DNA of 64,000 bases, taken from IMG/VR virus record IMGVR_UViG_2657245091_000008. The stretch is one strand, 5' to 3'. This DNA comes from a virus. Lineage: Duplodnaviria > Heunggongvirae > Uroviricota > Caudoviricetes. Position numbers and translations under genes: made by a program. The notes under the pieces were generated by a model. The model saw only the letters and a program-made list of their open reading frames with translations, was not told the origin of the DNA and made no database searches. Position 1 is the first letter of the stretch. Every line of letters starts with the position of its first letter. This document shows, one piece after another, positions 2,116 through 55,295 of this stretch.

Positions 2116-2159
2116 CATTTGTGTTAGAAAATACATATTAATTATCTAACACAAATGGG
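2116..2159. promoter_or_regulatory. Operator-like motif pair (14-bp inverted repeats CCATTTGTGTTAGA / TCTAACACAAATGG) upstream of rdgC
   Basis: Two inverted copies of the recurrent TGTTAGAAAA-type motif. Confidence 0.45.
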
Positions 2160-13628: not shown

Positions 13629-13650
13629 TAAAATGTTAGAAAACTAATTT
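13629..13650. promoter_or_regulatory. Operator-like motif copy
   Basis: AAATGTTAGAAAACTAATTT. Confidence 0.35.
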
Positions 13651-14269: not shown

Positions 14270-14310
14270 TGGTTAGATATTCAAAATTGATTTTCTAACA
14301 CAAAACATTA
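14270..14310. promoter_or_regulatory. Operator-like motif pair in ref / 14495 divergent promoter region
   Basis: GGTTAGATATTCAAAATTGATTTTCTAACACAAAAC (two inverted half-sites). Confidence 0.45.
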
Positions 14311-18761: not shown

Positions 18762-18806
18762 AAATTACGTTAGAACATTGATTTTAGTTTTCTAACATAT
18801 TATTTT
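18762..18806. promoter_or_regulatory. Operator-like motif pair upstream of 18840 gene
   Basis: CGTTAGAACATTGATTTTAGTTTTCTAACATATTATTTT. Confidence 0.45.
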
Positions 18807-25770: not shown

Positions 25771-26075
25771 TGATGACCGGCGAGCTTTATTTTAAAATGG
25801 CACGGGAGCGGCGTGTGCATCTGGATCGGATATTTCATCTCCAGAAGAGAGTAGAAGAACTGGAACGTCGTCTGAACTGTTATCCTGTTGATATGGTGTC
25901 TGCAATACCGCCGATTCCAATAGAAATGCAGATCCGCCTATGGATGGAAGAATATGGAATGCCGTGGGAGATATTTTTCTGCTTCGACCATAAACAGTGG
26001 GTAGATGAGCTGGATAATAGTTTCCCATATTTCACAGAGAACACATGCCCAGTATGCAGGAAGAACGGAATATGA
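25770..26075 (+). CDS. Hypothetical coiled-coil / Cys-pair protein (tandem paralog B)
   Basis: C-terminal MPWEIFFCFDHKQWVDELDNSFPYFTENTCPVCRKNGI. Confidence 0.5.
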   Translation: MMTGELYFKMARERRVHLDRIFHLQKRVEELERRLNCYPVDMVSAIPPIPIEMQIRLWMEEYGMPWEIFFCFDHKQWVDELDNSFPYFTENTCPVCRKNGI

Positions 26076-26596
26076 CAAAATTTGGAAAGCTGGAAGCTCA
26101 TTTGCTAACTCGTAACTACCGCCATGATATACACCCATATAGACAGTGGATCGATGAAAGCGAAGGAGTAGTTACATTCCCTCTATACAGGTTTGATGGG
26201 ATGTTGGCTGGGTATCAGACATATAGACCAGGTGCTCCTAAGCAGCATAGCAATCCGAAGATGGCCCGGTATTTCACGCGATCACACGGCAGACAGTTAC
26301 TTTGGGGAACCTATCTTCCTTTAAAAGATGGCCCAATATGGATAACTGAGTCTATTTTTAAGAGCGCAGCTGTACACAACGCGGGCGGCAATTCGTGGGC
26401 GCTGTTAGGTTCAACTTTCTCCGCAGGATTACGCCGTCAACTTGCGATGCTGCCGTATGACTTTCGTGTAATAGGTGACAATGATGCGGCTGGTGAATCA
26501 CTTGTGAAGTCTTTCGGAAAAGGTTTTGTGGCCCCGGATCTTGACGAGCTACAACCACATGAAGTGTCTCATTTGATTTTTAGCCATAGCCAATAA
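26072..26596 (+). CDS. Hypothetical protein, possible Toprim-like acidic motif
   Basis: 175 aa from MTKFGKLEAH; contains IGDNDAAGE. Confidence 0.4.
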   Translation: MTKFGKLEAHLLTRNYRHDIHPYRQWIDESEGVVTFPLYRFDGMLAGYQTYRPGAPKQHSNPKMARYFTRSHGRQLLWGTYLPLKDGPIWITESIFKSAAVHNAGGNSWALLGSTFSAGLRRQLAMLPYDFRVIGDNDAAGESLVKSFGKGFVAPDLDELQPHEVSHLIFSHSQ

Positions 26597-26804
26597 GCAT
26601 CTCTCCCCTTTGAGGTCACAATTAGTGGCCTTAAACAATGTGTTTTCTACCTCGATTTAGCCTTTATTATCGTTTTGCATTTCTCTAATCCGGGCAACGA
26701 GGTTACGCTGATCCGTTGGTGATGAATAGTAGCAAAGCGCACAAAATCATCAGCGGTGGTTGATGTACGTAACGCGTTTGCACCAAAGGTGTCTCTTTAA
26801 TGTA

Positions 26805-26824
26805 TACTGTATAAATGAACAGTA
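26805..26824 (+). promoter_or_regulatory. LexA (SOS) box upstream of humD
   Basis: TACTGTATAAATGAACAGTA = CTGT-N8-ACAG, 20 bp upstream of humD start. Confidence 0.65.
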
Positions 26825-26843
26825 TCATTGAGGTGAAAACGCT

Positions 26844-27233
26844 ATGGGCTTCCCTTCTCCTGCGGCGGATTATGTTGAAAGCCGAATTTCTCTTGATCAG
26901 CAACTAATCAGGCATCCATCAGCAACCTACTTCATGCGGGCGGCAGACAGCCATCACCGTGAGGGAATATTGCAGGGTGCTTTGCTGGTGGTTGATTCTT
27001 CGCTTACTCCAGTTGATGGTTCGCTGCTTGTGTGCGCTATGGAGGGTGAATATCGCATAAAGAGATACCGAAAGTATCCGCGCCAGCACCTGGAGGATTT
27101 AAGCACCGGGAAGAAAGAGGCGTTACCAGTAGATGACGATGGTTACACGGGTAGTAATGCTGTTTTTGGTGTGATCACTCATGTCATCAATGATGCCCGA
27201 AGTGGGGAGTTTGATGATTGTCCGGTCATTTAA
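26844..27233 (+). CDS. humD: HumD, UmuD'-like translesion polymerase accessory protein (LexA/S24 peptidase fold)
   Basis: 129 aa starting MGFPSPAADYVE (UmuD' form without N-terminal cleavage segment); adjacent to phd-doc as in P1. Confidence 0.85.
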   Translation: MGFPSPAADYVESRISLDQQLIRHPSATYFMRAADSHHREGILQGALLVVDSSLTPVDGSLLVCAMEGEYRIKRYRKYPRQHLEDLSTGKKEALPVDDDGYTGSNAVFGVITHVINDARSGEFDDCPVI

Positions 27234-27305
27234 GCTGCAAAGTGCTGGTGCTTTATGCCTGTGAAGTTTATGATTGTGTACACATAACGAGTACACGAGG
27301 TGTTT

Positions 27306-27527
27306 ATGCAGTCCATTAACTTCCGTACCGCGCGCGGCAACCTTTCTGAATTGCTCAACAATGTTGAAGCCGGGGAAGAGGTTGAAATCACCCGCAGAGG
27401 CCGTGAACCAGCAGTAATTGTCAGCAAGGCTACTTTCGAAGCCTACAAAAAGGCGGCGCTGGATGCTGAATTTGCATCCCTGTTTGACACCCTGGACTCC
27501 ACCAACAAGGAACTGGTTAACCGATAA
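27306..27527 (+). CDS. phd: Phd antitoxin (prevent-host-death)
   Basis: [49 protein letters not shown]... essentially matches P1 Phd as I recall it. Confidence 0.9.
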
Positions 27528-27907
27528 TGAGGCATATATCACCGGAAGAACTTATTGCGCTTCATGATGCGAATATAAGCCGCTACGGCGGCCTGCCGGG
27601 AATGTCAGATCCGGGTAGGGCAGAGGCCATTATCGGGAGAGTTCAGGCCAGAGTTGCCTACGAAGAGATCACCGACCTTTTCGAAGTCTCCGCAACCTAC
27701 CTGGTGGCTACTGCGAGAGGGCATATATTCAATGATGCCAATAAGCGTACCGCGCTAAACAGTGCGCTGCTATTTCTACGCCGTAACGGTATACAGGTAT
27801 ATGATTCTCCCGTGCTGGTGGAACTTGCGGTGGGGGCTGCAACTGGTGAAATCCCCGTATCTTCAGTAGCGGAAAAACTACGTGAACTATATGGTTCCAA
27901 TATTTGA
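27527..27907 (+). CDS. doc: Doc toxin (death-on-curing, Fic fold)
   Basis: [39 protein letters not shown]...[23 protein letters not shown] matches P1 Doc; ATGA overlap with phd. Confidence 0.9.
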
Positions 27908-27936
27908 AAAGAAGCCCGCTCAACCAGGCGGGCTTC
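27903..27936 (-). terminator. Intrinsic terminator ending the 31822-to-27943 minus-strand operon
   Basis: On minus strand GAAGCCCGC-loop-GCGGGCTTC followed by TTTTCAAAT. Confidence 0.55.
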
Positions 27937-27942
27937 CTACTA

Positions 27943-29049
27943 TCACTCAATGATTTTTTCTGCTGTCAGCCAGCTAATTTCTTGCCTGTCTTTCGGCGGT
28001 TTTAGCATGTGGGCGTATTCAGCAACATTCTCCCACGGAATTGTTTTTGCCCACTCAACGATAGCATTGTGATCTGCAGTGAAGAGTGGAATGGTGTGCG
28101 ATTTCAACCACTCCAATGTTGTAACGCCATGTTTTTTGGCGTGGTGCTGTGCATGATGCCGGGCTATCACTCGTAATGGCATTATCCATTCACTACCATC
28201 AGGCATCGAAAAGCGCATTGTCTTCGGCATATCTGATTCAAGAACAGCCTCCCTAATACCAGGAAACTCACCAAGAACCATACGACGGTAGTAATCGCTG
28301 TTTTTACCACCATATATTTCTGCAATGTTATCAAGATAACCTTGAGAAATAATGGGGGTATCTTCTGCGTTCAGCTTGATGGCTGTATAAATACCACATG
28401 GATTTTCTTCTGATTTAGCACGACCATGATGGGAATCGTAAAAGTGTCCATGCTCCTCCTCTGAAGGAGCGGACATTAAAAGTATACGTGAATCGTCACT
28501 TACTAACGATGCTCTTAACATGCTGAATAGCCGATCGCCAGCAAGAGCCGCCTCCGTAACAATGATTAAAAGATGTTCAGCATAATATCCACCGAAACCT
28601 TCCTCATAATTTCGGTGATATGGCTTAATTTCGCAGCCCCAATATTCCCGGTAACGATGATTGATGCCGTTTCCATCGACTTTAAAATATTCTCCCAGCA
28701 ATGGGATTCTGTTACTGACTCTATCCCAATACGTACTTATGTATTGGATAACTTGCCTGCGACAATTATAGAACTTTGGGGAAACAATAACCGTTTTAGA
28801 CTCAGGCATCAGGATTGTATAAAGAATACTAATTATAGCGATAACCGTCTTTTGGCCTATCCCTTCAGGAGTGGTGACGCTGACTGCTGAACCTTTTTGT
28901 TGAATCGCCTCAACAATTAGCTTTTGCTGGTGGGTTAACTTAACACCCATCAACTCTTCTGCTGCTAATGCCCAGTCATGGCTATATTTGCTTACCAGCT
29001 CTCTCCACTCTGGTAATTCGGTGATGTTTTTAGGCGTCAGCATCAGCAT
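27943..29049 (-). CDS. Terminase-large-subunit (PacB) ATPase-domain paralog, degenerate, no nuclease domain
   Basis: Aligns with the PacB ATPase domain encoded at 34384-35892 (HQQKLIVEAIQQKGS...; FYDSHHGRAKSEENPCGIYTAI vs FYDSHHSQAKTPDNPKGIWTAI); Walker A becomes EGIGQKT, Walker B LDE becomes VTE; 368 aa vs 502 aa. Confidence 0.6.
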   Translation of the reverse strand: MLMLTPKNITELPEWRELVSKYSHDWALAAEELMGVKLTHQQKLIVEAIQQKGSAVSVTTPEGIGQKTVIAIISILYTILMPESKTVIVSPKFYNCRRQVIQYISTYWDRVSNRIPLLGEYFKVDGNGINHRYREYWGCEIKPYHRNYEEGFGGYYAEHLLIIVTEAALAGDRLFSMLRASLVSDDSRILLMSAPSEEEHGHFYDSHHGRAKSEENPCGIYTAIKLNAEDTPIISQGYLDNIAEIYGGKNSDYYRRMVLGEFPGIREAVLESDMPKTMRFSMPDGSEWIMPLRVIARHHAQHHAKKHGVTTLEWLKSHTIPLFTADHNAIVEWAKTIPWENVAEYAHMLKPPKDRQEISWLTAEKIIE

Positions 29050-29836
29050 CCTCCGCTACCTCTGCCTCCACATCTGCCGCGACTTCATCGGACTGTTCTT
29101 CTTTGGCCTGTTCTGCAATCGCCGCACGGCATTTGGCCCTTGCTGTGGCGATTGCTTCAGCACGCACATCATCAGGAATCGTTGACGTGATATACATATC
29201 CAGTTCTTCGGCGCGGAACACTGTTTGGTCCAGATATTCGCGTAGCATCCAGGTAAATTCGAAATCACACGCGATAATCTCTGCGCTACCTTCTGCACCA
29301 TTTGGGAAATGAATAAATGCCTGTTTAGCCAAACCGATAACACGACATGCGGTTGCCAAAACAGCGACAACCAGATTTACATTTTCACACGCTACGGGCT
29401 GATTAACGCCGGAGATTACTCCATTTAACTGTCGGTTATATGGAAGGTAGTTTGAGATGCGTTCTACGCGCCATGTGCCAGTCAGGCTGCCATTTTTAAA
29501 GATAATTGGTGTAACGGATAGCCCAAGCTCGCGTATAAGTCGTTGCGCTATAGCAGGATCATTAAACAGGTCTAATGCTACACATTCGAAAGACTGCGCA
29601 AGGGCAAACAGTTCTTCCAGAGAGTAGTCTTTGCCCCTGGCGGTGATGTAACGACGAACGCCGCTGTCTGCATCACTCCATATAGCTACGCCATGCTCTT
29701 CATTCAGTTCTTCATTAAAGCCGAGATACGTCATGATAGTGCGTTCAATCGTGTCAAACGGCAGTGACATGTCGGCGTTAACAGCCACCAGCAGGCCATT
29801 ACGCAAGCGGTATTGAATTGTTTTGGTGCTTTCCAT
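29030..29836 (-). CDS. Hypothetical protein with acidic C-terminal tail
   Basis: 268-aa ORF in same operon; C-terminal Asp/Glu/Ala-rich tail. Confidence 0.5.
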   Translation of the reverse strand: MESTKTIQYRLRNGLLVAVNADMSLPFDTIERTIMTYLGFNEELNEEHGVAIWSDADSGVRRYITARGKDYSLEELFALAQSFECVALDLFNDPAIAQRLIRELGLSVTPIIFKNGSLTGTWRVERISNYLPYNRQLNGVISGVNQPVACENVNLVVAVLATACRVIGLAKQAFIHFPNGAEGSAEIIACDFEFTWMLREYLDQTVFRAEELDMYITSTIPDDVRAEAIATARAKCRAAIAEQAKEEQSDEVAADVEAEVAEDADADA

Positions 29837-29842
29837 GTCAAA

Positions 29843-30499
29843 TTACTCCACTACAAACCAGTCACATGCCAGTAAATCAGCAACAGACGGCAACCAAACG
29901 TTGTCTATATTTTGCGCATCCTTCAATACAAAATGGTCGCCATAAGGAACCTGAATGTCGTGGAAATTGACGCACCCAGCTAGAACTAACCAGCAGCATT
30001 GCTTTTCGCCTTTCCACCCGCGTCGAGATACCTTTCTTCCTTCTTTCAACCACGTCAGCGCGACAGAAAAGTCGGCTGCTTCAAGGTCGATTTCTTCTTG
30101 TTGGGTAGTGATACCACCAGCAGAAATAGTTACGTCCCTGGCTGTAATGAATGTCACCCCATTGTGACCTTCAATCCTGAGCGATACCCCATTTTCGAAG
30201 ATGTCGTTAGTTCGACTAAAGCCATCTTTAAATTTCTTTTCTGATAAACAGGACAGATGACCTTCTTCATCAACGACAAGATAGCCGCCAACTTGTGGTA
30301 GGTGTTTTTGCAAAAACATTGCATCAACATAGATTCTTACTCCTTTGGGTTCTGTGACCTCGATTTCACCACAATTAGGCATCACAGGAGTAATACCACC
30401 GATGTATTTGATATTCTTGATTTTCGATGCACTAACGTTTTTGTGAGCTTTGTATTTGGGAAGGAACTTAAAAAGCTCTTTCGTTGCCATGTTATTCAT
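29843..30499 (-). CDS. Hypothetical protein with C-terminal DUF2829 (Tad2-like) domain
   Basis: C-terminus ALTWLKEGRKVSRRGWKGEK...VWLPSVADLLACDWFVVE fits the DUF2829 pattern as I recall it. Confidence 0.5.
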   Translation of the reverse strand: MNNMATKELFKFLPKYKAHKNVSASKIKNIKYIGGITPVMPNCGEIEVTEPKGVRIYVDAMFLQKHLPQVGGYLVVDEEGHLSCLSEKKFKDGFSRTNDIFENGVSLRIEGHNGVTFITARDVTISAGGITTQQEEIDLEAADFSVALTWLKEGRKVSRRGWKGEKQCCWLVLAGCVNFHDIQVPYGDHFVLKDAQNIDNVWLPSVADLLACDWFVVE

Positions 30500-31481: not shown

Positions 31482-31822
31482 CGACGCCCCCTTGCAGGAT
31501 ATCGACCTGCATTAGTATCCGGTGCAATAAAGCCGGTAGTGGGGCGAGTGAAAGCGAGATTAATCTTCTCGACCATAGTGCGATAATTTTCCTGATAGTG
31601 GGCCAGGAGTTTTTCGGCGGCAATGATGGTTACTTTCCGGACGTAGCTTTCTGCTTCCTCCAGATTTCGCCAGTTTTTTTCGAGGGTAAACACAGGGACG
31701 GCCTCAAGCCCGGTCATGATGCCGAACACAACGACAGCATGACTGTTCTTAACACCAGCGGCGAAGGTTACGGTGTAACCATCCACCTTGAAGCGTCTTG
31801 ATTCCGTGATTTGACTCTGCAA
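31478..31822 (-). CDS. Hypothetical protein (first gene of operon)
   Basis: 114-aa ORF; operator-like motif about 55 bp upstream. Confidence 0.5.
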   Translation of the reverse strand: MQSQITESRRFKVDGYTVTFAAGVKNSHAVVVFGIMTGLEAVPVFTLEKNWRNLEEAESYVRKVTIIAAEKLLAHYQENYRTMVEKINLAFTRPTTGFIAPDTNAGRYPARGRR

Positions 31823-31876
31823 AGCACCCTCCTAAATAGGCGAGGGTACTTTACAGCAAAGGCGTTAATCTAAAAA

Positions 31877-31897
31877 GATGTGTTAGAAATTTAATTT
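31877..31897. promoter_or_regulatory. Operator-like motif upstream of the 31822-to-27943 operon
   Basis: GATGTGTTAGAAATTTAATTT. Confidence 0.45.
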
Positions 31898-32924
31898 ACG
31901 AATCCATCAGGCGGCTATTAGCCCCCACAGACACGCCGCCACGGCGAAGATACCGCATAAGTGTTTCCGGTTTCTTCCAGGTTCCTTCCTGCATGATCTC
32001 CACCATAGACACCTGCTTTTCAGCCATATCAATAGCGGCCCCGACGCGTGCACTATGCCCGGTCCACGTCCGGTATCTTCCTTTGTTTGGCGTAGCATCT
32101 CTTTTATTCAGCAACACCCAGGCGTCGCTGAATATTTTCTCCATTGCAGGTGCAGTAAGGGGTGTTGTCGTGATCCTGGCCTTATTGCTACGGTGTATCG
32201 GCGGGAACAGCACTGCGTCAGGATGTTCGCGAAGCCCGGAAACATCCAGCCAGTCATTCAGCACAGCGGTAGTGCGACGGGAAAGCACCTTATCAAGCCC
32301 GGCGGCGGTCGTTATTGTCTTCGTGTGTGAAATATGTAGCGTGACAGTGTCACCTGTTTGATCCAGATCTCCTACACGAATACGCGAGATTTCCGACATA
32401 CGCATCAGCGTATTGTATGCAACAAAGAGAAAAGCCCGGTTGCGCAGGTCCACCAGCCGTTCTGACCTGGACAACAGGACGTCGAGCAGTTTCAGATCGT
32501 CCCACCGAAGCGGTATAGCCTGGCCTGTTCGTTCGCCTTTTTCAGTTGCCGCTTCGCGCCGGATGCGCCGCATAGCCAGAGAAACACTTTTATCATCCGA
32601 AAGTGGCGGAAGACCACAATGCGAAAGCAGCATGTTCAGCATGGCGTAGTGCTTATCAATGGTGGTCGAAGCCAGATCGGCATCATGCAGCTGAAGAAAA
32701 TACTCGCGGGCCATTTCTGGTGAGATCGGAAACCAGGCAAGCTGGCGAGCGTGACACCAGCGCGCCCAGGAATGAAACACCAACCGGAGGTCGCGCAGAG
32801 TATTCGGCGCATAAGCCCCCTGGTCATTCATGAACCGCATAAAGTTTTCTGCGGCTTCCTGGTACTCTTTGCCAATGTTGCGCAGAAAACCACCGGAACT
32901 GCCAGAGATAATTAATTCACTCAT
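31896..32924 (-). CDS. cre: Cre-like tyrosine site-specific recombinase
   Basis: Collinear similarity to P1 Cre (SWARWCHARQLAWFPISPE, VSLAMRRIRRE, AYNTLMRMSEISRIRVGDL, WTGHSARVGAAIDMA); R-H-R-Y-type catalytic residues present; divergent, not identical. Confidence 0.85.
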   Translation of the reverse strand: MSELIISGSSGGFLRNIGKEYQEAAENFMRFMNDQGAYAPNTLRDLRLVFHSWARWCHARQLAWFPISPEMAREYFLQLHDADLASTTIDKHYAMLNMLLSHCGLPPLSDDKSVSLAMRRIRREAATEKGERTGQAIPLRWDDLKLLDVLLSRSERLVDLRNRAFLFVAYNTLMRMSEISRIRVGDLDQTGDTVTLHISHTKTITTAAGLDKVLSRRTTAVLNDWLDVSGLREHPDAVLFPPIHRSNKARITTTPLTAPAMEKIFSDAWVLLNKRDATPNKGRYRTWTGHSARVGAAIDMAEKQVSMVEIMQEGTWKKPETLMRYLRRGGVSVGANSRLMDS

Positions 32925-33076
32925 GAAACTATTTGACCTCTATATACAGATGACGCTACGCGAAAAATATAAAAATGACAGGGTAGCTATAAGTTAATTT
33001 TCAAAATACAAGCCTTTGATTCGAGGCACGTATTTTCAGTGATGTCAACACTGTTCATCTACACATGATTATAGCC

Positions 33077-33108
33077 TAACTTTAAATAATGCCAATTATT
33101 TAAAGTTA
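33077..33108. other. lox-like recombination site candidate
   Basis: TAACTTTAAATAAT-GCCA-ATTATTTAAAGTTA, perfect 14-bp inverted arms (or 12-bp arms with 8-bp spacer ATGCCAAT); arms share TAACTT and ATA with loxP arm ATAACTTCGTATA; about 150 bp upstream of cre-like start. Confidence 0.5.
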
Positions 33109-33285
33109 CAGAATGGCGATTTTTTTTAATCCATCATAGATTGATTTTGACCAGTAACACGTTGCCTTCATGGTCTTTAATTTGCGAAGTGTGGTTTATA
33201 CAGTTGGTTTTCTAAAATTGATGACAAAAAATCACAGTTCGATCCTTTACTCACTCTGTTATTCGACATAAATTTGTCATAGTAA

Positions 33286-33307
33286 TTTTATGTTAGAAAA
33301 CTAAATC
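33286..33307. promoter_or_regulatory. Operator-like motif upstream of 33319 gene
   Basis: TTTTATGTTAGAAAACTAAATC. Confidence 0.45.
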
Positions 33308-33318
33308 GAGTAGGAATA

Positions 33319-34356
33319 ATGAGTAAGAAGTCGATCGAGAAAGAGTACAAACGGTTCCTGCAAACCGCTGAACGGTGGAAAGAGCTGGTGGTCGCAAACT
33401 CTGTTTTCCATGATACCAGTTATGCTGGCGAGGAATTCCGCCATGTTGCATTAACGCATGACCAAAACATATTAGAAGAAGCTGAAAAATGTCTTGCTGA
33501 ATGGAAAGCCTTCGTTGACATGTGCCGCGATGCCGACGGCAAAGCGTCGAACATTGTTGAGTCTGTATATTCTCCGATCCCATTCATCATTGAGGACACC
33601 AATCAAAGCACGCATGTTGTTGTGCAAAGCGCTACAACAACACGTACATTTACACGTGAACAATTGCTCAAAAAATACGACAAAATCATAAAGAAAAGCC
33701 TGAAAAATAGGGTTTTTTCTCAAATTGTAGGTGCTCTTGAAGAAGAACAGCGCTTCTTTGAAGCTGAGCCTGAAGGCGAGATCTACCGGGCGCGTAAAGA
33801 GGCATATACAGATGTTGTGCTGACAACAAACATCGAAGGCAGCAATGCCCTTTCTCGCTTTAGAGTTGGCGCACATGGCGCATTGGTTTTCGCAAGACTA
33901 CCGAAGACAACGATCCCCGTTGTCAATAATGTTGGTGAACGCCGGAGCATTACAATTTATTCAGGCGTCGAATCGGTACCTTGCAGCCTTCTCGGCGATT
34001 TTAACTTATATCGTGTTCGTGACCTGGAAAAACACCAGCCAAGCTACGTTGCGAAGTCGTACATCTTAAGGAACATCGATATTCGCAATGAAAGCCTTAA
34101 GCAGAAATCCGCTAAGATGCTGGAGGATGCCGATCCGGCTATTCGCCATATCATTGAGCGTAAGATACGTACATCACGTGAAGCAATGGCAAGGCTGGAT
34201 AAAATGGATCTGGAATTGTTAGACGTAATGATGGCCTCTGGAGACGACCTGACCGGCATTAAACTGAATGAAGCTCGTAAAAAATACGGCAAAGCAATCG
34301 AAGAACGTTACGGATACACATTCCCCCAAACGCAGTACGCCGCGAAGCTCTGGTAA
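33319..34356 (+). CDS. Hypothetical protein occupying the c1-like position (convergent with pacB)
   Basis: 345-aa ORF; operator-like motif overlaps its promoter region; no HTH recognised. Confidence 0.5.
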   Translation: MSKKSIEKEYKRFLQTAERWKELVVANSVFHDTSYAGEEFRHVALTHDQNILEEAEKCLAEWKAFVDMCRDADGKASNIVESVYSPIPFIIEDTNQSTHVVVQSATTTRTFTREQLLKKYDKIIKKSLKNRVFSQIVGALEEEQRFFEAEPEGEIYRARKEAYTDVVLTTNIEGSNALSRFRVGAHGALVFARLPKTTIPVVNNVGERRSITIYSGVESVPCSLLGDFNLYRVRDLEKHQPSYVAKSYILRNIDIRNESLKQKSAKMLEDADPAIRHIIERKIRTSREAMARLDKMDLELLDVMMASGDDLTGIKLNEARKKYGKAIEERYGYTFPQTQYAAKLW

Positions 34357-34364
34357 TCACAACC

Positions 34365-34390
34365 GGCCCCGCATCGCGGGGCTTTATATA
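34365..34390 (+). terminator. Intrinsic terminator after 33319-34356
   Basis: GGCCCCGC-ATC-GCGGGGC followed by TTTATATAT. Confidence 0.5.
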
Positions 34391-35892
34391 TCCAGATCTG
34401 GCATTTCGATATCCGCCAGAACCTGATCTCGGAAAGTTGCCATTTCGGCACCAATATCTTCATTAGCAGGCACATAGTCCACCAGCATAGTGAAGCAGTA
34501 GGTATCCCATCGGTCAGGCGATTTGATGTTTAGCTTTTGCCGCATGTGCTCTTTGCGCATCATCGCCATTTTCCCTTCCTCATTCAGTAAAAAGGGGATT
34601 TTTGACGCTTGCTCTGCCGTTTTAGGGTCACTGTCTATCCGCATACGCCCTGACTTTATGGCATCACGCGCCATAATATTTGCGTAGGCACGCTGATTAA
34701 CAAATCGCTCCCTGTCTTTGTTCGCAAACATGGGTTTTCCCCACCGAATACGTACCGGGTTCGCACCACGACGCACCAACTGCGCACACGTATCAGAACC
34801 AAAACCATCGGCATCAACCGCGATTGTTATATTCGGGTATTTTTCCGGCGTACATTCGTTATATATAAAGTCAGCAAAGGCCAATGGGTCCATAGTGCCA
34901 GGCATCTCCATTACCTTAAAGTTAACAACGCGCCGCTTATCCCTGTGACCAGATACCTTGCAGATGTTGAGGACCGACTTATCTCGCCCATTACCAACGT
35001 CAGCCGTTGCCACCCATCCCCAGTTTTTCTCCAACAACACCTTGCGGCGAGCAGCGCGATCGCATTCATCACGACCAAGCAAATAGCCGTTAATTTCTCG
35101 TGGGAACTGACCAAGCACCTTGACCATATACTCAATAGAATCGCGCCCACCATATTCCAGAAGCTTCTGCTTGATGAATTGTGGTGTGACGAACGGTGAT
35201 TCTTCCGAGTTAAGAACAATTGCTGTCCAGATCCCTTTCGGGTTGTCTGGGGTTTTTGCTTGAGAATGGTGCGAATCGTAGAAATAACCACTTGGCCTTG
35301 TTGGCTGGGATAGCATCAACATCCGGTTATCTTCTTCAGTAAGAGCACCGGTCATTACGCCGATCGCCTTATCAGATATACCAGATGCTTCATCCAGAAT
35401 TAGAAGCAAATGTGCCGCGTGTTCCCCCGCCAGCGCTTCTTCGTTGCCGAGTCGATAACCTTTGCAGAGAACTTCCCAAATCCCCTTACGGGAGCGCTCA
35501 TAAAACATGGTGTCAGAGAGGACAAAATAGGTCTGCAACCACCCATGACGCTTAACTGCATTCGCCCAATACTGTTTAACGTATTTGAATACGCCTGTTT
35601 TTACCTGGCCTATCTTGTTAGCAACAATGATGACACGGGCATCGGGGAACAGGATCATAAAAATCAACAGCAACATCGCGGTAAGGGACGACTTCCCCGT
35701 TCCGTGTCCGGACGTGACGGTCGTCCTACTCCCCGTTTCCTGCACTGACTGAATGATCTGCTGCTGCTGGTGGGAGGGGAACATCCCAAAAATATCGACA
35801 ACAGCCTGGGTAAAGTTGTAGCGGTATTTGATTACCATATCGCGCCAGCGTGGATCGCTGGTGACGCATTTAATCTTGCGCCCGCCAGCCAT
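34384..35892 (-). CDS. pacB: Terminase large subunit (PacB-like)
   Basis: 502 aa; Walker A VTSGHGTGKSS, Walker B LLLILDEAS, C-terminal acidic nuclease-like residues; directly follows pacA-like gene. Confidence 0.8.
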   Translation of the reverse strand: MAGGRKIKCVTSDPRWRDMVIKYRYNFTQAVVDIFGMFPSHQQQQIIQSVQETGSRTTVTSGHGTGKSSLTAMLLLIFMILFPDARVIIVANKIGQVKTGVFKYVKQYWANAVKRHGWLQTYFVLSDTMFYERSRKGIWEVLCKGYRLGNEEALAGEHAAHLLLILDEASGISDKAIGVMTGALTEEDNRMLMLSQPTRPSGYFYDSHHSQAKTPDNPKGIWTAIVLNSEESPFVTPQFIKQKLLEYGGRDSIEYMVKVLGQFPREINGYLLGRDECDRAARRKVLLEKNWGWVATADVGNGRDKSVLNICKVSGHRDKRRVVNFKVMEMPGTMDPLAFADFIYNECTPEKYPNITIAVDADGFGSDTCAQLVRRGANPVRIRWGKPMFANKDRERFVNQRAYANIMARDAIKSGRMRIDSDPKTAEQASKIPFLLNEEGKMAMMRKEHMRQKLNIKSPDRWDTYCFTMLVDYVPANEDIGAEMATFRDQVLADIEMPDLDI

Positions 35893-37256
35893 TAATCATC
35901 CTCCGGCGGTTCTATCGCGATATCATCATCTCCGGCGTCATACCCTGCATCAGATGCATCATAATCACCGTAAATTTCAGCCGTTGCCGAAGGGTCAATA
36001 TCCAGCTCTTCGTCGTTGGCCTCGAATTCTCCAGCTTTACGCTCGCCATTGCGGTCGTAATCTCCGCACCCCAATTCTTCAACAATGGTTGCCACATCCG
36101 CCCGGCGCTCTGCCAGCCATTGCGGATGGTTAGCCTGAAGCGTTGCAAACTCCCTTGCCTCTTTGTCCAGCTGTTCATCATCAACATCATTGACGTCAGA
36201 AACAGGTGGTTCGAGAAGAGTGATAGCTTTCGCCGCGCGCGCCGCGAGGATAGCCGGGACGCTGACCCCCTGGCGCTCGATGTATTCAGCAACACCGATA
36301 TCATCCAGTTCCTCGCGCTCACGCATACGTATAGCGGCGGCGATAACTCTGGCAGCGCGTGCGTCAGCGCCAATGCGATATTCAATCTCTTTGCCACGCT
36401 GTTCGGCCTGTAGGCGTGCTAATTCGAGTTTTTCTCTGGCCTCAGCCTCTTTGAATGCTTGCTGGCGAGCGCTCTGACGAAGCTTTTCATCCCCCTGTCG
36501 CAGCTTTTGTTCGGACTGATATATAGCTGCCAACCTACTGATAAAATCATTCATGTAGTAGGCCGCGTCACTGATTAGACCGAGAAGGCGCTGCCCAGGG
36601 TGCATTCCTTCTGGCTCTTTATCGCCCAAGGCGTCTATTTCCGCCTGTAGACGTTCGGCCTCCTGATCAACAATGCTTTGATACTGAAGTGCGCGCTCTT
36701 GCGCCATTTGAATTGCTAACCGCAGGTGTTCTTCTGCGCCGTTCTTCATCATATCGCGAGCCACATTCGTAGTGGGCAATGTGGCACGCTGCACAGCACC
36801 GCCAGGGATCATTGCTGAAGATCCCTCAATTTTTGGGGCGCTTTTATCTTCTTCGGGGATCATTTTCGCCATTTTTTCGCGCAATGATCTCCTGACAGAT
36901 TCTTTTATCTCATTGTTATTATTGGTATTACTTTCATGATCCGAAGTTTTCTTTCTTGGCATACTTCGGAAAGAACCTGCACCCTGCGAATTGTCAATTT
37001 CTGTAAATTTTGTTTTTTCTGCACCCTCTTCCAGCTTTTTTGTTGCTCTTCCCGCCCGTTTTTTTTCAGGTGATTTGGTGCTTTTTTTTGTTGTCTTTAC
37101 CTGCGACCGCACCTCATTTTTTTTCATATTGAGATGCTTTCTGGCTGTATTGAAGCTAAGACCATGCTCCTCACAGTATTCCTTTACAGTGATCCCTTTT
37201 TCTTCACGCAACGCTATAAAGCGGGCGCGGTGCTCCTCCCAATTAACCAGACTCAT
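35892..37256 (-). CDS. pacA: Terminase small/pac-recognition subunit (PacA-like)
   Basis: 454 aa; N-terminal HTH-like region, highly acidic C-terminus; GATC-rich pac-like cluster inside 5' part; ATGA coupling with lpa-like gene upstream. Confidence 0.7.
   Translation of the reverse strand: MSLVNWEEHRARFIALREEKGITVKEYCEEHGLSFNTARKHLNMKKNEVRSQVKTTKKSTKSPEKKRAGRATKKLEEGAEKTKFTEIDNSQGAGSFRSMPRKKTSDHESNTNNNNEIKESVRRSLREKMAKMIPEEDKSAPKIEGSSAMIPGGAVQRATLPTTNVARDMMKNGAEEHLRLAIQMAQERALQYQSIVDQEAERLQAEIDALGDKEPEGMHPGQRLLGLISDAAYYMNDFISRLAAIYQSEQKLRQGDEKLRQSARQQAFKEAEAREKLELARLQAEQRGKEIEYRIGADARAARVIAAAIRMREREELDDIGVAEYIERQGVSVPAILAARAAKAITLLEPPVSDVNDVDDEQLDKEAREFATLQANHPQWLAERRADVATIVEELGCGDYDRNGERKAGEFEANDEELDIDPSATAEIYGDYDASDAGYDAGDDDIAIEPPEDD
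36800..36945. other. pac-like packaging site candidate (cluster of GATC-containing hexamers)
   Basis: Five GATC within about 140 bp (36807, 36820, 36858, 36886, 36938), four in TGATC(C/T) hexamers, inside the 5' region of pacA as in P1. Confidence 0.4.
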
Positions 37257-37645
37257 AAAGCAACACCACGCTTTTTAACGGCGGCATTCCACAGCTTATT
37301 CGCCATGTCCACCAGCTCTCGTTGCTCTTTTCGCGCCTGTTCGACTGATTTCCTGCTACAGTTTTTAACCAGTAAGCTACCGTATTCAGGCGTGCGCCCG
37401 CGCACCTTGAACTGATATCCGTTCAGACCATGTAGCCAGTATTTTCGTGGATACACACGATCATCCAGCTCACAGATTGCCCTGCTTGAACGAACAAAAT
37501 GACGAATGATGTTAGTTACACTTACTCGTGAAACATGGAGATGAGGGTATTTTTCTTTGGCGAGAGTGGTAATTTCAGTGACTGTCAGATAGCAGTCAGC
37601 CCTGATCATGATATCCGCAATTTCTGCGCTGCTGATTTGTTCCAT
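37253..37645 (-). CDS. Lpa-like late promoter activator (by position upstream of pacA)
   Basis: 130-aa ORF immediately upstream of and overlapping pacA; operator-like motif upstream; assignment by synteny only. Confidence 0.45.
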   Translation of the reverse strand: MEQISSAEIADIMIRADCYLTVTEITTLAKEKYPHLHVSRVSVTNIIRHFVRSSRAICELDDRVYPRKYWLHGLNGYQFKVRGRTPEYGSLLVKNCSRKSVEQARKEQRELVDMANKLWNAAVKKRGVAL

Positions 37646-37718: not shown

Positions 37719-37740
37719 GATTGTATTAGAAAATTAATAT
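37719..37740. promoter_or_regulatory. Operator-like motif upstream of lpa-like gene
   Basis: GATTGTATTAGAAAATTAATAT. Confidence 0.45.
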
Positions 37741-39175: not shown

Positions 39176-39251
39176 TGGTGGCCCCTACCGGATTTGAACC
39201 GGTGACCGTGCGATTATGAGTCGCCTGCTCTAACCACTGAGCTAAAGGGCC
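39176..39251 (-). tRNA. tRNA-Ile2 (anticodon CAU, ileX-like; elongator Met not excluded)
   Basis: GGCCCTTTAGCTCAGTGGTTAGAGCAGGCGACTCATAATCGCACGGTCACCGGTTCAAATCCGGTAGGGGCCACCA; canonical cloverleaf, near-identical anticodon arm to E. coli ileX. Confidence 0.8.
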
Positions 39252-39388
39252 AGATTACTGTTAATTCCGCTTACGCTTTTTGCCAGAACCGCGTAAGGCT
39301 TTTGCCGCTTGCTCGACCCCATATGCAACCACCAGCAAAAATAAAAATGTCCAACCAGGGTTCTTATCGGCAAACGCCCAAAAATTCA

Positions 39389-39712
39389 TCACTTACAGCC
39401 ACCTTGCATTTCCTCGGATAATTCATTGATTTTAGTGCTCAATAAGTAATCAAAGTAAAGATAAAACACAAAAGTAACGATAGTGCTTAAAGTGTCTGAA
39501 ATTGCGTATTTCAGCTCAGGAAGCATGACAAAGCAGACAAATAGCGGAAGAAATAACTGCACTATGCACAGGCTCTCCTTCCACAACCATCTATATCTGA
39601 AGTCTGACAACAAAAACTCCATTGCTTGAAACTTTATTAGATTGCGGTGCCTGGTGCCTCCAGGTGACGTTAACCAGTTAACAATTAACGCCGGGATGTT
39701 TGACTTAACCAC
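39389..39712 (-). CDS. Hypothetical small membrane protein
   Basis: 107-aa AT-rich ORF between tRNA genes, hydrophobic. Confidence 0.3.
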   Translation of the reverse strand: MVKSNIPALIVNWLTSPGGTRHRNLIKFQAMEFLLSDFRYRWLWKESLCIVQLFLPLFVCFVMLPELKYAISDTLSTIVTFVFYLYFDYLLSTKINELSEEMQGGCK

Positions 39713-39872
39713 TAAGGAGGATTGTTTTAACTGTTCCGCGTGCGCTTAGCCGCATTCACCGCAATGGTAAGAGCACTTGGCTGGCTGGGCGGCGATGACG
39801 CCTGTACGCATTTGGTGATCCGGTTCTGCTTCCGGCATTCGCTTAATTAGCCAAATACTCTTAACGTTGCGC

Positions 39873-39959
39873 TGGCGGAGAGTAATGGAATCGAACCATC
39901 ATCGCTTGCGCAATGGGACGGTTTTCAAGACCGCTTGAGCACCATGCTCCCTACTCTCC
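39873..39959 (-). tRNA. tRNA-Ser-like (anticodon UGA), type II with atypical D-arm
   Basis: Acceptor GGAGAGT/ACTCTCC+GCCA, anticodon arm CGGTCTTGAAAACCG as in E. coli tRNA-Ser(UGA), long variable arm, T-loop GGTTCGATTCC; D-arm non-canonical. Confidence 0.55.
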
Positions 39960-40323
39960 CGTTATTGTGGCGACCGGTGCTGATCTCCGGCTTGCGGTTA
40001 TTTCAGACTCTCACGGGCGTTTAATTGCCCCGCCGAACAGCTCTTTTCCGCAATAGCTGCAATGTCTTTCGCGCATCAGCCTGCGCATTCACCACAATGT
40101 TGAGAACACTGGTTGTCACGCTGCAACGCAACATTTATTCGTAGATTGGGATATGACCCCGTTACGCCAGTGTTCTCAACGTTGTAGTGCCGGTTACGGT
40201 TCCGGCCAGGCCTCTTCCTCAACGGGGTGTTCTCCATACGGACTACCGTTTATTGGTCGTTCCTGCGGTTTATGTTGTGAAGCCAGATGCTTATCTTCTG
40301 GTTGCTTCAAAGAGCTGCACTTC

Positions 40324-40412
40324 CTCACAACGGTAAGGGTACTTCGTAGGGATTCGAACCCTCTGCCAAGCTCGGCGATCTCCGACGTCGCAAAATACCC
40401 TTACCTGTTGTG
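40324..40412 (-). pseudogene. tRNA-like remnant (acceptor, D-arm and T-arm but no anticodon arm)
   Basis: T-loop signature AGGGTTCGAATCCCT and pairing acceptor-like stem, only about 65 nt core, enclosed by a 16-bp extended stem. Confidence 0.3.
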
Positions 40413-40413
40413 C

Positions 40414-40489
40414 TGGTGCCGATTAACGGACTCGAACCGCTGACCATTCGCTTACAAAGCGACTGCTCTACCAACTGAGCTAAATCGGC
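40414..40489 (-). tRNA. tRNA-Thr (anticodon UGU)
   Basis: GCCGATTTAGCTCAGTTGGTAGAGCAGTCGCTTTGTAAGCGAATGGTCAGCGGTTCGAGTCCGTTAATCGGCACCA; canonical cloverleaf. Confidence 0.8.
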
Positions 40490-40493
40490 AATT

Positions 40494-40580
40494 TGGTGGG
40501 GAGTGATGGAGTCGAACCACCCGAGTCGCAATGACAGTAGATTTACAGTCTACCCCGCTACCCCTACGGACTAACTCCCC
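40494..40580 (-). tRNA. tRNA-Tyr-like (anticodon GUA), type II with atypical D-arm
   Basis: Acceptor GGGGAGT/ACTCCCC+ACCA, anticodon arm GTAGACTGTAAATCTAC, long variable arm, T-loop GGTTCGACTCC. Confidence 0.55.
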
Positions 40581-40585
40581 TAAAG

Positions 40586-40662
40586 TGGCGATGGTGGGTG
40601 GATTCGAACCACCGACCGACAGCTTAGAAGGCTGCTGCTCTATCCTACTGAGCTACACCATC
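40586..40662 (-). tRNA. tRNA-Arg (anticodon UCU)
   Basis: GATGGTGTAGCTCAGTAGGATAGAGCAGCAGCCTTCTAAGCTGTCGGTCGGTGGTTCGAATCCACCCACCATCGCCA; perfect acceptor, D and T stems. Confidence 0.8.
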
Positions 40663-41883
40663 ACTTGCCGGGTACGTCTCCGGCGAGGGCTTCCACCTCC
40701 GTATGCTTTTCGGCGCACCGCGCCCTGGCTGCAATTCGGTAACAGGGGATGCATAACCCTGGCTTCCAGCGTGATTAGCGCCTTCAGCATGACGGGATAT
40801 ACCCGTTACAAGAAATTCCCCCAGGATGCCATTAAGCAATGGCTGTTACGCGGGAGGGACGTAACAGGTAAGGGCGCTGACCAGAAAGACCTGACCCTTC
40901 TCATTCATCTGGTTAATCACACCAGCGCCCTTGCCTGTTATGCCTCCCCGTTCCCTAATACACAGACGGGGACACTCTGCGGTCGATTTTTTGACGGGGG
41001 ACGACTCATACCCCGTGGCGTCTGGCTTCTTAGGCCGCTACCATCATCAGATCATCGTTTGCATTTACTTTAATGGTCGGTTTCTAAACCGCCGCAAAGT
41101 CGCTAACCATGACGAAAACCCTAAAAAAGCCCACCCGAAGATGGGCAAATACGCTACATCTCACACAAGAAAGAAGCCGACTGCCTGAGCTGGATTCACT
41201 TTCAAATGCCCGCAGAAAGGGATCACAAGTCGGCTTCTTTCTTGATGCGGCACTCTCTCCGCCCGTCACCGCTCTGTCTCGGTTGTCGCGTTTGCCACGC
41301 CAGCCGTAACGAGGTTTAAAGTCTTTGCACGTTTCCATCACTCGACTGCCGTCTGTGGCTGTTCGTTGCAGCGGGGGTGCCTCCCCCTGGGGATATCCCC
41401 GGCCTTACCCCATTCTTTCAAGACACAATGCAAGGCCACATCCGCATAGGTGCATTACCGCAACATTAAGGAGACTCAGGGCAAAAGGTAACCGCCACAA
41501 AAATCCCTATGCCTCCTTAATGTTGAAGATGTGCATTGATGATTAGATGCAGCATGTACTGTTACTCTCTGCCGGACCATCATCAATGAACACCTTAAAA
41601 AGACCTTCCGTGGCTCAACATGTATTGTCGTTTACTCCGCAAAGTGCTCTCTCTGAAACCACTTTCCGCACTAAACCTGTTGAACTTTGGTCAGCTCGGT
41701 GCCAAAGCGTGCTTTTGCTTTACTATACTTTTCTAACACTTTAATTTGTTAACAGCCGGTGGGCAAACAATAACCAATAAGTGACTATCAAGCCCAGCAA
41801 GCGAAACGTGGGTGCCGCCCACCAGCAAGGAAAATTCTATGTTAAGTTATCATCACAATCAATACATTCGAATTGTGATTTTA

Positions 41884-43126: not shown

Positions 43127-43153
43127 AAATTAGTTTTCTAACATATTTTATTA
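43127..43153. promoter_or_regulatory. Operator-like motif upstream of 41897-43120 gene
   Basis: AAATTAGTTTTCTAACATATTTTATTA. Confidence 0.45.
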
Positions 43154-54057: not shown

Positions 54058-54096
54058 GTTTTAGAAACAGCAAATTAATTTTCTAACATAAATCAT
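54058..54096. promoter_or_regulatory. Operator-like motif pair
   Basis: TTTTAGAAACAGCAAATTAATTTTCTAACATAAATCATC. Confidence 0.4.
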
Positions 54097-55274: not shown

Positions 55275-55295
55275 ACTATGTTAGAAATTTAACTT
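55275..55295. promoter_or_regulatory. Operator-like motif upstream of 54143-55105 gene
   Basis: ACTATGTTAGAAATTTAACTT. Confidence 0.4.

What the first reader, a model, noticed from the sequence alone, without database searches (positions are those of the whole stretch)
33319..34356. Unknown 345-aa gene in the c1-equivalent position with an operator-like motif in its promoter
It is convergent with pacB and separated from cre only by the lox-like region, which is where c1 lies in P1, and it is preceded by one copy of the recurrent motif (autoregulation?). It shows no recognisable HTH or similarity to what I recall of C1, so it may be a novel immunity repressor or something else entirely.
Basis: inference. 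Interest (0 to 1): 0.45.

Follow-up and report, generated by a model that had tools for sequence, protein, structure and literature searches.

The report
Phage D6 c1 repressor gene
The "unknown" 345-aa gene is the already-annotated c1 prophage repressor of a phage D6-like plasmid prophage. It is a very distant relative of the phage P1 C1 repressor, it has its own set of operator-like sites (two of them in its own promoter region), and its predicted core looks like the replication-terminator protein Tus.

Summary
An ORF at 33319-34356 (+) encodes 345 aa. It is convergent with pacB and divergent from the Cre-like recombinase gene dre across the rox site. It is preceded by the window's most recurrent motif.

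The gene is not unknown. The window is 98.8-99.3% identical over this region to phage D6, and the protein is 100% identical to D6 "c1: phage repressor protein". Pairwise identity to P1 C1 is only 21%, and NCBI's C1 equivalog model is missed by far. Homology is nevertheless solid: both proteins fall in PHROG 1678 and in precomputed Pfam PF27008 (Phage_P7_repressor_C1), and intermediate relatives link them.

The motif (TTRTGTTAGAAAAYTAAWTT) has 16 strong copies against 0.4 expected, and 15 of them are non-coding. They lie upstream of c1 (two copies), lpa, repL, ref and both immI modules, which parallels the P1 C1 regulon. The copy 28 nt before the c1 start is exact in all 28 distinct relatives examined. 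No P1-type operator, Coi or Lxc is present.

New here: the predicted core (residues 1-245) matches only Tus in the PDB by two methods.

Verdict: a known gene with an inferred autoregulated repressor function. The extra value lies in the operator set and the Tus-like fold.

The parts
33319..34356 (+). c1 gene, D6-type C1 prophage repressor, 345 aa. Core residues 1-245 are homologous to P1 C1. Residues ~246-345 are a helical C-terminal extension absent from P1 C1.
   Evidence: ORF. 100% aa identity to D6 c1. PHROG 1678 E 2.8e-170. Precomputed PF27008. Alignment with P1 C1. AF2 model pLDDT 85.8.
33288..33307 (+). Proximal operator-like site TTATGTTAGAAAACTAAATC (core 33291-33301), 28 nt upstream of the c1 ATG and just before the ribosome-binding site.
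   Evidence: 27.1 bits in the PWM scan, 25.3 leave-one-out. Core exact at -27 to -33 in all 28 distinct upstream regions from relatives with C1 down to 44% identity.
33201..33220 (-). Distal, weaker, inverted operator-like site CAATTTTAGAAAACCAACTG (core 33207-33217), 84 bp from the proximal core.
   Evidence: 16.9 bits, 9.6 leave-one-out. TTTTCTAA is invariant in an otherwise diverged stretch of the 5-lineage alignment. An exact TGTTAGAAAA lies in the same place and orientation in L010 and L011.
33246..33274 (+). Candidate weak sigma-70 promoter for c1: TTTACT-17-TAAATT (8 of 12).
   Evidence: Own scan. It falls below the 9/12 threshold of the tool scan. CCTTTACTCA and TAAATTT are conserved islands in alignment A3. 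Inference only.
33312..33315 (+). Shine-Dalgarno-like AGGA within the invariant TCGAGTAGGAA.
   Evidence: Sequence. Invariant in alignment A3.
33077..33108 (.). rox site (Dre target), which marks the boundary between dre and the c1 control region.
   Evidence: Sequence. Annotated as misc_recomb in the D6 records.
34365..34383 (.). GC-rich hairpin between the convergent c1 and pacB genes (terminator-like).
37721..37740 (+). Operator-like site about 80 nt upstream of lpa (37253..37645, -). It has the same position and the same orientation of the TCTAAT core as Olpa in P1.
   Evidence: 26.6 bits. Sequence comparison with P1 Olpa. A copy lies at the same distance in L010.
55276..55295 (+). Operator-like site upstream of the repL homologue.
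   Evidence: 26.0 bits. Mapping to D6 annotation.
54072..54091 (-). Operator-like site upstream of the second immI-like module (C4 RNA, icd, anti-repressor).
   Evidence: 30.5 bits. C4 and a1b1 RNAs at 53777-53982. D6 annotation.
13631..13650 (+). Operator-like site upstream of the first immI-like module (small ORFs, isrK-like and C4 RNAs, icd, anti-repressor).
   Evidence: 28.5 bits. Rfam. D6 annotation and mapping.
14284..14303 (-). Operator-like site in the divergent ref / early-operon promoter region.
   Evidence: 28.5 bits. Mapping to D6 orf87 (ref) and orf88.
2119..2154 (.). Palindromic pair of overlapping operator-like sites upstream of the hrdC-dmt operon.
   Evidence: 23.5 and 26.6 bits. 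Mapping.
18765..18800 (.). Second palindromic pair (13.0 and 28.8 bits) between the ppp and pdcB-like genes.
   Evidence: Mapping.
31878..31897 (+). Operator-like site upstream of the orf117-orf116-dut operon, overlapping the dre stop codon.
   Evidence: 28.9 bits. A copy lies at the same relative place in L010.
43127..43146 (-). Operator-like site upstream of the pmgS homologue. Further sites lie at 41722-41741, 41878-41897, 44170-44189 and 44224-44243.
   Evidence: Mapping.

Best explanation
The ORF is the c1 gene of a D6-like P1-family plasmid prophage, that is, the primary immunity (immC) repressor. Its core (residues 1-245) is a very divergent homologue of P1/P7 C1 and lacks a helix-turn-helix. 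Like P1 C1, it most likely binds an asymmetric operator of about 17-20 bp. In this lineage that operator is TTRTGTTAGAAAAYTAAWTT, which shares the TCTAA core with the P1 operator ATTGCTCTAATAAATTT. The sites are dispersed over the genome in front of lpa (late-gene activator), repL (lytic replication), ref, two c4-icd-antirepressor modules and other early operons, so the repressor would keep the prophage quiescent. Two sites flank the weak c1 promoter: one lies between the promoter and the ribosome-binding site, and an inverted one lies 84 bp upstream. This implies negative autoregulation, possibly with looping. The immC region is stripped down compared with P1: there is no coi, imcA or imcB, no P1-type operators, and no Lxc in the window. 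The element should therefore be heteroimmune to P1, and induction should run through the two C4-controlled anti-repressor modules. Shown here: gene identity, family membership, non-random motif, conserved positions of the sites. Inferred: that this protein binds the motif, that it represses, and that it autoregulates.
For: Identity and synteny: 98.8-99.3% nucleotide identity to D6 over 31800-37300 and 100% aa identity to D6 c1. The order dre-rox-c1-pacB-pacA-lpa is conserved in relatives with C1 at 51% and 44% identity. Homology to P1 C1: both fall in PHROG 1678 (E 2.8e-170 and 2.6e-140). Both types carry precomputed PF27008 Phage_P7_repressor_C1. There is a colinear BLASTP match of 21% over 240 aa. 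NCBIfam phage_rep_C1 gives E 8.9e-6 over residues 7-240. Intermediates P0054, P0055, P0060 and P0073 hit the window protein at 1e-12 to 4e-6 library-wide and P1 C1 at 9e-33 to 4e-46. Motif: 16 sites of at least 14 bits against 0.4 expected, and 15 of 16 are non-coding. The sites map upstream of lpa, repL, ref, c1 and both immI modules, the same targets as P1 C1 (P1 annotation; PMC8546580). The site before lpa has the same distance and core orientation as P1 Olpa. The proximal c1 site is exact in 28 of 28 distinct upstream regions, and both sites are conserved islands in diverged DNA. A third C1 lineage has a different recurrent motif with the same TCTAA core. No other repressor candidate is annotated in D6.
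Against: There is no experimental evidence here, or in the papers I could read, that D6 C1 binds this motif or maintains lysogeny. The two papers most likely to discuss it (Sauer & McDermott 2004; Gilcrease & Casjens 2018) are not held. The score against NCBI's C1 equivalog model is 25 bits against a cut-off of 500. The c1 promoter is only an 8/12 match and is not called by the standard scan. Several sites do not overlap a convincing promoter; the lpa site, for example, lies 18 bp upstream of the best -35. The weight matrix was trained on the sites it then scores, although leave-one-out scores stay at or above 23 bits for 11 sites.
Confidence: 0.85

Rival explanations
1. The recurrent motif is not this protein's operator. 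It is instead a shared early-promoter element (it contains an extended -10-like TGTTAGAAA) or the site of another factor, and c1 merely has such a promoter.
For: The motif contains TGnTAGAAA, which resembles an extended -10. At c1 it lies 12-28 nt before the start codon, where a promoter for a short-leader mRNA could lie. No binding data exist.
Against: Motif orientation relative to the downstream gene is mixed. It is opposite at lpa, repL, orf117 and immI-1, and the same at c1, pmgS, ref and immI-2. It also occurs as overlapping palindromic pairs (2119-2154, 18765-18800). Both features are typical of P1 C1 operators and not of a directional promoter element. The set of genes it precedes matches the P1 C1 regulon. 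It shares the TCTAA core, position and orientation with P1 Olpa.
Confidence: 0.08
2. The gene is a C1-family relic or has been re-purposed, for example as a Tus-like replication-fork or plasmid-maintenance DNA binder. Immunity would then be provided by something else, such as the C4 RNA/anti-repressor modules alone or an unrecognised repressor.
For: The core fold matches only Tus. The long form carries an extra conserved C-terminal domain of unknown role. Coi, Lxc and ImcA/B are absent.
Against: The protein is conserved full-length across many plasmids and viral contigs from 100% down to 25-35% identity. The gene keeps the immC position, and its putative sites sit in front of lytic regulators, not at replication origins or termini. 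P1 C1, a member of the same family, is a proven transcriptional repressor (PMC8546580).
Confidence: 0.04
3. The ORF is an ordinary conserved hypothetical gene, and its position next to rox is coincidental.
For: The local Pfam-A copy gives no hit, and PHROG 1678 is labelled 'unknown function'.
Against: P1 C1 itself scores E 2.6e-140 against the same PHROG. Newer Pfam places both in Phage_P7_repressor_C1. Synteny and motif evidence are as above.
Confidence: 0.02

Closest known systems
Phage D6 c1 (AAV84948.1 in AY753669; ASR76322.1 = D6_1 in MF356679)
   Same: 100% amino-acid identity. The same neighbours dre, rox, pacB, pacA and lpa.
   Different: Nothing at the protein level. The window as a whole is a mosaic D6 relative, 92-98% identical in blocks with some blocks replaced. 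The D6 records annotate no operators.
Phage P1/P7 C1 repressor (283 aa; NCBIfam NF041318, Pfam PF27008, PHROG 1678)
   Same: Homologous core of about 240 residues. The same genomic position (convergent with pacB, next to lox/cre). No HTH. Many dispersed asymmetric sites with a TCTAA core in front of lpa, repL, ref, the immI operon and c1 itself. Some sites occur as overlapping inverted pairs (PMC8546580).
   Different: Only 21% identity, and far below the equivalog cut-off. An extra helical C-terminal domain of about 100 aa is conserved in the long-form clade. The operator sequence differs, with no P1 operator within 3 mismatches in 64 kb. There is no coi, imcA or imcB between c1 and the recombination site, and no Lxc in the window. 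The paired sites have a different geometry: cores 22 bp apart and divergent, against 12 bp apart and convergent in P1 Oc1ab.
E. coli Tus (replication terminus site-binding protein, PDB 1ECR/4XR0; Pfam PF05472)
   Different: No usable sequence similarity (hhalign probability 5%, P 0.008). The function differs: transcriptional repression at many sites against polar fork arrest. C1 is smaller, and the long form adds a C-terminal helical domain.
Lambda CI / LexA-type HTH-peptidase S24 repressors
   Same: The role as prophage maintenance repressor with autoregulation.
   Different: No HTH, no S24 domain and no symmetric dimer operators. Induction is presumably by anti-repressors rather than RecA-mediated cleavage.

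Membership tests
P1/P7 C1 repressor family (Pfam PF27008 Phage_P7_repressor_C1; PHROG 1678) | Significant profile-level sequence homology to P1/P7 C1 over the core | tested here: met
   PHROG 1678: window protein E 2.8e-170, P1 C1 E 2.6e-140. Precomputed PF27008 on both D6-type and P1-type clusters. Transitive phmmer/BLASTP links.
P1/P7 C1 repressor family | Equivalog-level similarity (NCBIfam NF041318 phage_rep_C1, cut-off 500 bits) | tested here: not met
   25.4 bits, E 8.9e-6, residues 7-240. The protein is a distant subfamily, not an equivalog of P1 C1.
P1/P7 C1 repressor family | immC position: convergent with pacB, adjacent to the lox-type site and the cre-type recombinase | tested here: met
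   The position is conserved in L010 and L011.
P1/P7 C1 repressor family | Many dispersed asymmetric operators in front of lpa, repL, ref, the immI operon and c1 | tested here: met
   16 sites against 0.4 expected. Their positions map to those genes. This is computational only.
P1/P7 C1 repressor family | P1 operator specificity (ATTGCTCTAATAAATTT) | tested here: not met
   0 matches with up to 3 mismatches in the window. The D6-type consensus matches the P1 consensus at about 10 of 15 aligned positions around TCTAA.
P1/P7 C1 repressor family | Accessory immC/immT factors Coi, ImcA, ImcB and Lxc (Bof) | tested here: not met
   No tblastn hit better than E 0.3 in the window. No conserved small ORF lies between rox and c1. 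The window covers only about 70% of a D6-size genome, so Lxc elsewhere is not excluded here. PMC6799933 reports that Lxc was not detected in a D6-like plasmid.
P1/P7 C1 repressor family | Binds operator DNA and represses lytic genes; null mutants are clear-plaque or induced | not testable with these tools
   Needs EMSA or footprinting and genetics.
Tus / Ter-binding protein (Pfam PF05472) | Tus fold (two alpha/beta domains joined by long beta strands) | tested here: met
Tus / Ter-binding protein (Pfam PF05472) | Sequence membership in PF05472 | tested here: not met
   No Pfam hit for the window protein. One of 47 family members hits Ter at E 0.015. hhalign probability is 5%.
Tus / Ter-binding protein (Pfam PF05472) | Polar arrest of replication forks at bound sites | not testable with these tools
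   Needs 2D-gel or helicase-arrest assays.
HTH (lambda CI / Cro / XRE-type) phage repressors | Helix-turn-helix DNA-binding domain | tested here: not met
   No HTH family in Pfam at E up to 1. Fold searches return no HTH proteins for the core.

The most novel reading that the evidence does not exclude
The C1 repressors of P1-family phage-plasmids, this D6-type protein included, are Tus-fold proteins. They would be monomeric clamps that read an asymmetric site with long inter-domain beta strands, and they may share ancestry with the enterobacterial replication terminator Tus. That would explain why this long-studied repressor family has no HTH and uses asymmetric operators. It would also raise the question of whether operator-bound C1 is a polar barrier to replication or transcription. 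In the long-form clade, a conserved extra C-terminal helical domain might supply the cooperativity or looping that P1 obtains from the separate co-repressor Lxc.
Probability: 0.5. Interest if true: 0.55.

Novelty: already known. Interest (0 to 1): 0.3.

Why it matters
The gene itself adds nothing new. It is the D6 c1 gene, which sits next to the widely used Dre/rox recombination system. D6-like plasmid prophages are common in E. coli and Salmonella: 197 plasmid records match this region. Three things are useful. First, there is a concrete and testable operator consensus and regulon map for D6-type immunity, which the public D6 records do not annotate. Second, this lineage appears to run P1-style immunity without Coi, ImcA/B or Lxc. 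Third, a fold-level link between the C1 family and Tus gives a structural hypothesis for how an HTH-less repressor recognises asymmetric operators.

Tried and rejected
- tblastn of the protein against 50,697 phage records at E 1e-3 found only D6. P1 c1 is too distant for this, so profiles were needed.
- The local Pfam-A copy gave no hit for the window protein or for P1 C1. PF27008 is newer than that copy.
- PDB sequence searches with the protein and with a 47-member profile gave nothing meaningful.
- I tested whether the C-terminal extension is a fused Lxc/Bof. There is no similarity to P1 Lxc and no relative of the extension in any phage record other than D6, so I rejected this at sequence level.
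- I tested for a coi-like small gene between rox and c1. The only candidate is a 33-aa ORF at 33170-33271, which lies in the least conserved, indel-rich part of the spacer. Rejected.
- Profile-profile comparison of C1 with Tus gave probability 5%. The Tus homologues retrieved were all more than 81% identical, so the Tus profile stayed shallow.
- The afdb50 fold library was unavailable.
- Sauer & McDermott 2004, Gilcrease & Casjens 2018 and Lobocka 2004 are not held. I therefore cannot say whether the D6 operator consensus has been published. Full-text searches for the motif string, for 'C1 repressor' with Tus, and for D6-like operators found nothing relevant.
- Promoter scans around the sites gave only weak 8-9/12 matches in AT-rich DNA and were not informative.

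Full report
OBSERVATION

- It converges on a terminase large-subunit gene (34384..35892, -; PHROG terminase hits). The two are 27 nt apart, with a GC-rich hairpin at 34365-34383 between them.
- It diverges from a tyrosine recombinase gene (31896..32924, -; Pfam Phage_integrase).
- The 394-bp spacer contains the 32-bp inverted-repeat site TAACTTTAAATAATGCCAATTATTTAAAGTTA at 33077-33108.

WHAT THE WINDOW IS

Megablast of 31800-37300 against phage records hits only Escherichia phage D6.
- Identity is 98.8% over 100% of the query to the immC-region record AY753669, and 99.3% to the genome MF356679/NC_050154.
- In those records the neighbours are annotated dre, rox, pacB, pacA and lpa. The ORF itself is annotated 'c1: phage repressor protein; similar to the C1 repressor of phage P1' and 'prophage repressor'.
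- tblastn shows 100% amino-acid identity.
- Over the full 64 kb the window is a mosaic D6 relative, with 92-98% identical blocks and some blocks replaced.
- The same region occurs in 197 plasmid records of E. coli, Salmonella, Shigella and others. Their identity tiers are about 99%, 84%, 77% and 69%.
So the gene is not unknown.

IS IT REALLY A C1 HOMOLOGUE?

- Pairwise BLASTP to P1 C1 (283 aa) gives 21% identity over 240 colinear residues.
- A database tblastn does not reach P1.
- The local Pfam-A copy has no model for either protein.
- NCBI's equivalog model for C1 scores 25 bits against a cut-off of 500.

Profile evidence is nevertheless clear.
- P1 C1 and the window protein both match PHROG 1678, with E 2.6e-140 and 2.8e-170.
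- Every D6-type and P1-type cluster in the large protein collection carries the precomputed Pfam domain PF27008, named Phage_P7_repressor_C1.
- An exhaustive phmmer search finds 59 cluster representatives. Several of them (P0054, P0055, P0060, P0073) hit the window protein at library-wide E-values of 1e-12 to 4e-6. They hit P1 C1 at 9e-33 to 4e-46.

The shared part is residues 1 to about 245. The D6 type then has about 100 further residues that P1 C1 lacks. This extension is conserved in a long-form clade down to 25-35% identity, with invariant positions such as the D in MD.EL and the R..YG motif. It has no relatives in phage records outside D6 and no similarity to P1 Lxc.

THE MOTIF

TGTTAGAAAA is the most frequent 10-mer of the window, with 9 exact copies, and four sites share an exact 14-mer.
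- A 20-nt matrix (consensus TTRTGTTAGAAAAYTAAWTT) finds 16 sites of at least 14 bits against 0.4 expected. Leave-one-out scores are at least 23 bits for 11 sites.
- With a crude gene call, 15 of the 16 lie in non-coding DNA. Shuffles of the non-coding DNA alone give 0.085.
- I mapped the sites onto the D6 annotation and the Rfam hits. They lie upstream of c1 (two), lpa, repL, ref with a divergent early operon, both c4-icd-antirepressor modules, hrdC-dmt, orf117-dut, pmgS and pmgM. Two more lie in an unannotated stretch.
- This is essentially the P1 C1 regulon: operators at lpa, repL, ref, the immI operon and c1 (P1 annotation; PMC8546580).
- The lpa site sits about 80 nt before the start codon, with its TCTAAT core in the same orientation as P1 Olpa.
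- Read in the P1 orientation, the D6-type consensus matches the P1 consensus at about 10 of 15 positions around TCTAA.
- No P1-type operator occurs in the window even with 3 mismatches allowed.
- Two loci (2119-2154 and 18765-18800) are overlapping inverted pairs. These recall P1's bivalent operators, but the geometry differs.

THE C1 CONTROL REGION

The proximal site (33288-33307, +) ends 12 nt before the ATG, next to the invariant TCGAGTAGGAA that holds the ribosome-binding site. A weaker inverted site (33201-33220, -) lies 84 bp upstream. Between them is a weak promoter candidate, TTTACT-17-TAAATT (33246-33274; 8 of 12).
- In an alignment of five lineages whose c1 regions are 69-84% identical, the DNA between rox and c1 is largely scrambled. 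The two site cores, CCTTTACTCA, TAAATTT and the ribosome-binding region stand out as conserved islands.
- Across 38 loci with 28 distinct upstream sequences, the proximal core is exact and 27-33 nt before the start in every case.
- In two relatives with C1 at 51% and 44% identity (the second with a different rox-like site), both copies are exact TGTTAGAAAA, in the same orientations, 84 and 96 bp apart.
- A third lineage (Enterobacter and Pantoea; C1 about 31% identical) has neither the D6 nor the P1 motif. It has a recurrent GCAATTCTAAGGA(G/T) upstream of c1 and at one or two other intergenic places. This suggests lineage-specific operators built around a common TCTAA core.
- There is no conserved small ORF in the coi/imcA/imcB position, and no Coi, ImcA, ImcB or Lxc homologue in the window.

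STRUCTURE

There is no solved relative by sequence.
- AlphaFold2 with a 21-sequence alignment gives pLDDT 85.8 for the full protein. The core is mixed alpha/beta with unusually long strands (99-112 and 155-171). It is followed by two long helices (233-269 and 276-306) and a small helical bundle.
- Foldseek against the PDB gave four significant hits, all Tus structures (E 3.5e-9 to 1.2e-6, probability 1.00, TMq 0.47-0.53). The next hit had E 0.19.
- Sequence-level signals are weak but consistent in register. hhalign gives P 0.008 (probability 5%), aligning C1 85-196 with Tus 145-268. phmmer of Tus against the family gives several sub-threshold matches with the same offset. One family member hits Pfam Ter at E 0.015.
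- The family's invariant R157 and R159 lie on the long strand that aligns with Tus 229-231.
- I found no paper in the held library that links C1 to Tus. That is not proof of novelty.

MECHANISM, WITH STATUS

Shown:
- gene identity;
- C1-family membership;
- a non-random, conserved, intergenic motif at C1-regulon positions;
- two conserved copies at c1;
- absence of P1 operators and of Coi, ImcA/B and Lxc in the window.

Inferred:
- the protein binds the motif, probably as a Tus-like clamp on an asymmetric site;
- it represses lpa, repL and the anti-repressor operons to maintain the plasmid prophage;
- it represses its own synthesis through the site between promoter and ribosome-binding site, possibly helped by the upstream site. 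The 84-bp spacing is about 8 helical turns;
- induction works through the two C4-RNA-controlled anti-repressor modules;
- the element is heteroimmune to P1.

The role of the C-terminal domain is unknown. Self-association that replaces Lxc is a guess.

VERDICT

This is a correct observation of a known gene. Its suggestion of a novel or unrelated protein is not supported. Novelty is 'already known' and interest is low to moderate. The operator and regulon map and the Tus-like fold are the only parts that go beyond the public annotation.

Noticed in passing
window 33068-33095 (- strand): The best sigma-70-like promoter in the region (TTGGCA-16-TATAAT, 11 of 12) lies inside the rox site and reads towards dre. 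Recombinase expression and the recombination site therefore overlap physically.
   Followed up: no
window 39176-40662 (- strand): ARAGORN and Rfam call five tRNA genes, all on the - strand: Met, Ser(tga), Thr, Tyr and Arg(tct). The D6 GenBank record lists only Ser, Thr and Asn, and puts them on the + strand. This is either a real difference or an annotation problem.
   Followed up: partly
window 12887-13097 and 53777-53982 (- strand): There are two separate immI-like modules. Each has an Rfam C4 antisense RNA, plus an isrK-like RNA in one and a c4-a1b1 target in the other. Each is followed by icd and an anti-repressor gene, and each has an operator-like site upstream. P1 has a single such module.
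   Followed up: partly
whole window, e.g. 33384-33391 inside c1: The Chi sequence GCTGGTGG occurs 42 times in 64 kb against 1.5 expected, on both strands. It is also the top 9-mer in related loci L010 and L011.
   Followed up: partly
window 40700-41897: About 1.2 kb between the tRNA cluster and pmgS is unannotated in D6 (L008 7850-9085). It carries two operator-like sites (41722-41741 and 41878-41897, both -) and only short ORFs, so it may hold an unrecognised C1-controlled small gene or RNA.
   Followed up: no
window 2119-2154 and 18765-18800: These are overlapping inverted pairs of operator-like sites that form imperfect palindromes. They are reminiscent of P1 bivalent operators, but the cores are 22 bp apart and divergent.
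   Followed up: partly
L046 5895, L047 5897 and 12304, L048 5896, 12334 and 1391: In Enterobacter and Pantoea P1-like elements whose C1 is about 31% identical to this one, a different motif recurs: GCAATTCTAAGGA(G/T). It lies about 105 nt upstream of c1 and at other intergenic places, and it shares only the TCTAA core with the P1 and D6 operators.
   Followed up: partly
window 15528-17246, 19837-30438, 39257-40586: These blocks have no match or only patchy matches to D6. The window is therefore a mosaic D6-like element rather than D6 itself. Closest plasmid in the c1 region: E. coli CP058021 at 99.8%.
   Followed up: no
window 27943-29049 (- strand): A 368-aa ORF shares N-terminal motifs with the pacB/terminase ATPase region, for example '...HQQKLIVEAIQ...' against '...HQQQQIIQSVQ...' and 'GHFYDSHH' against 'GYFYDSHH'. 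It may be a second, truncated terminase-like gene in a block that differs from D6.
   Followed up: no
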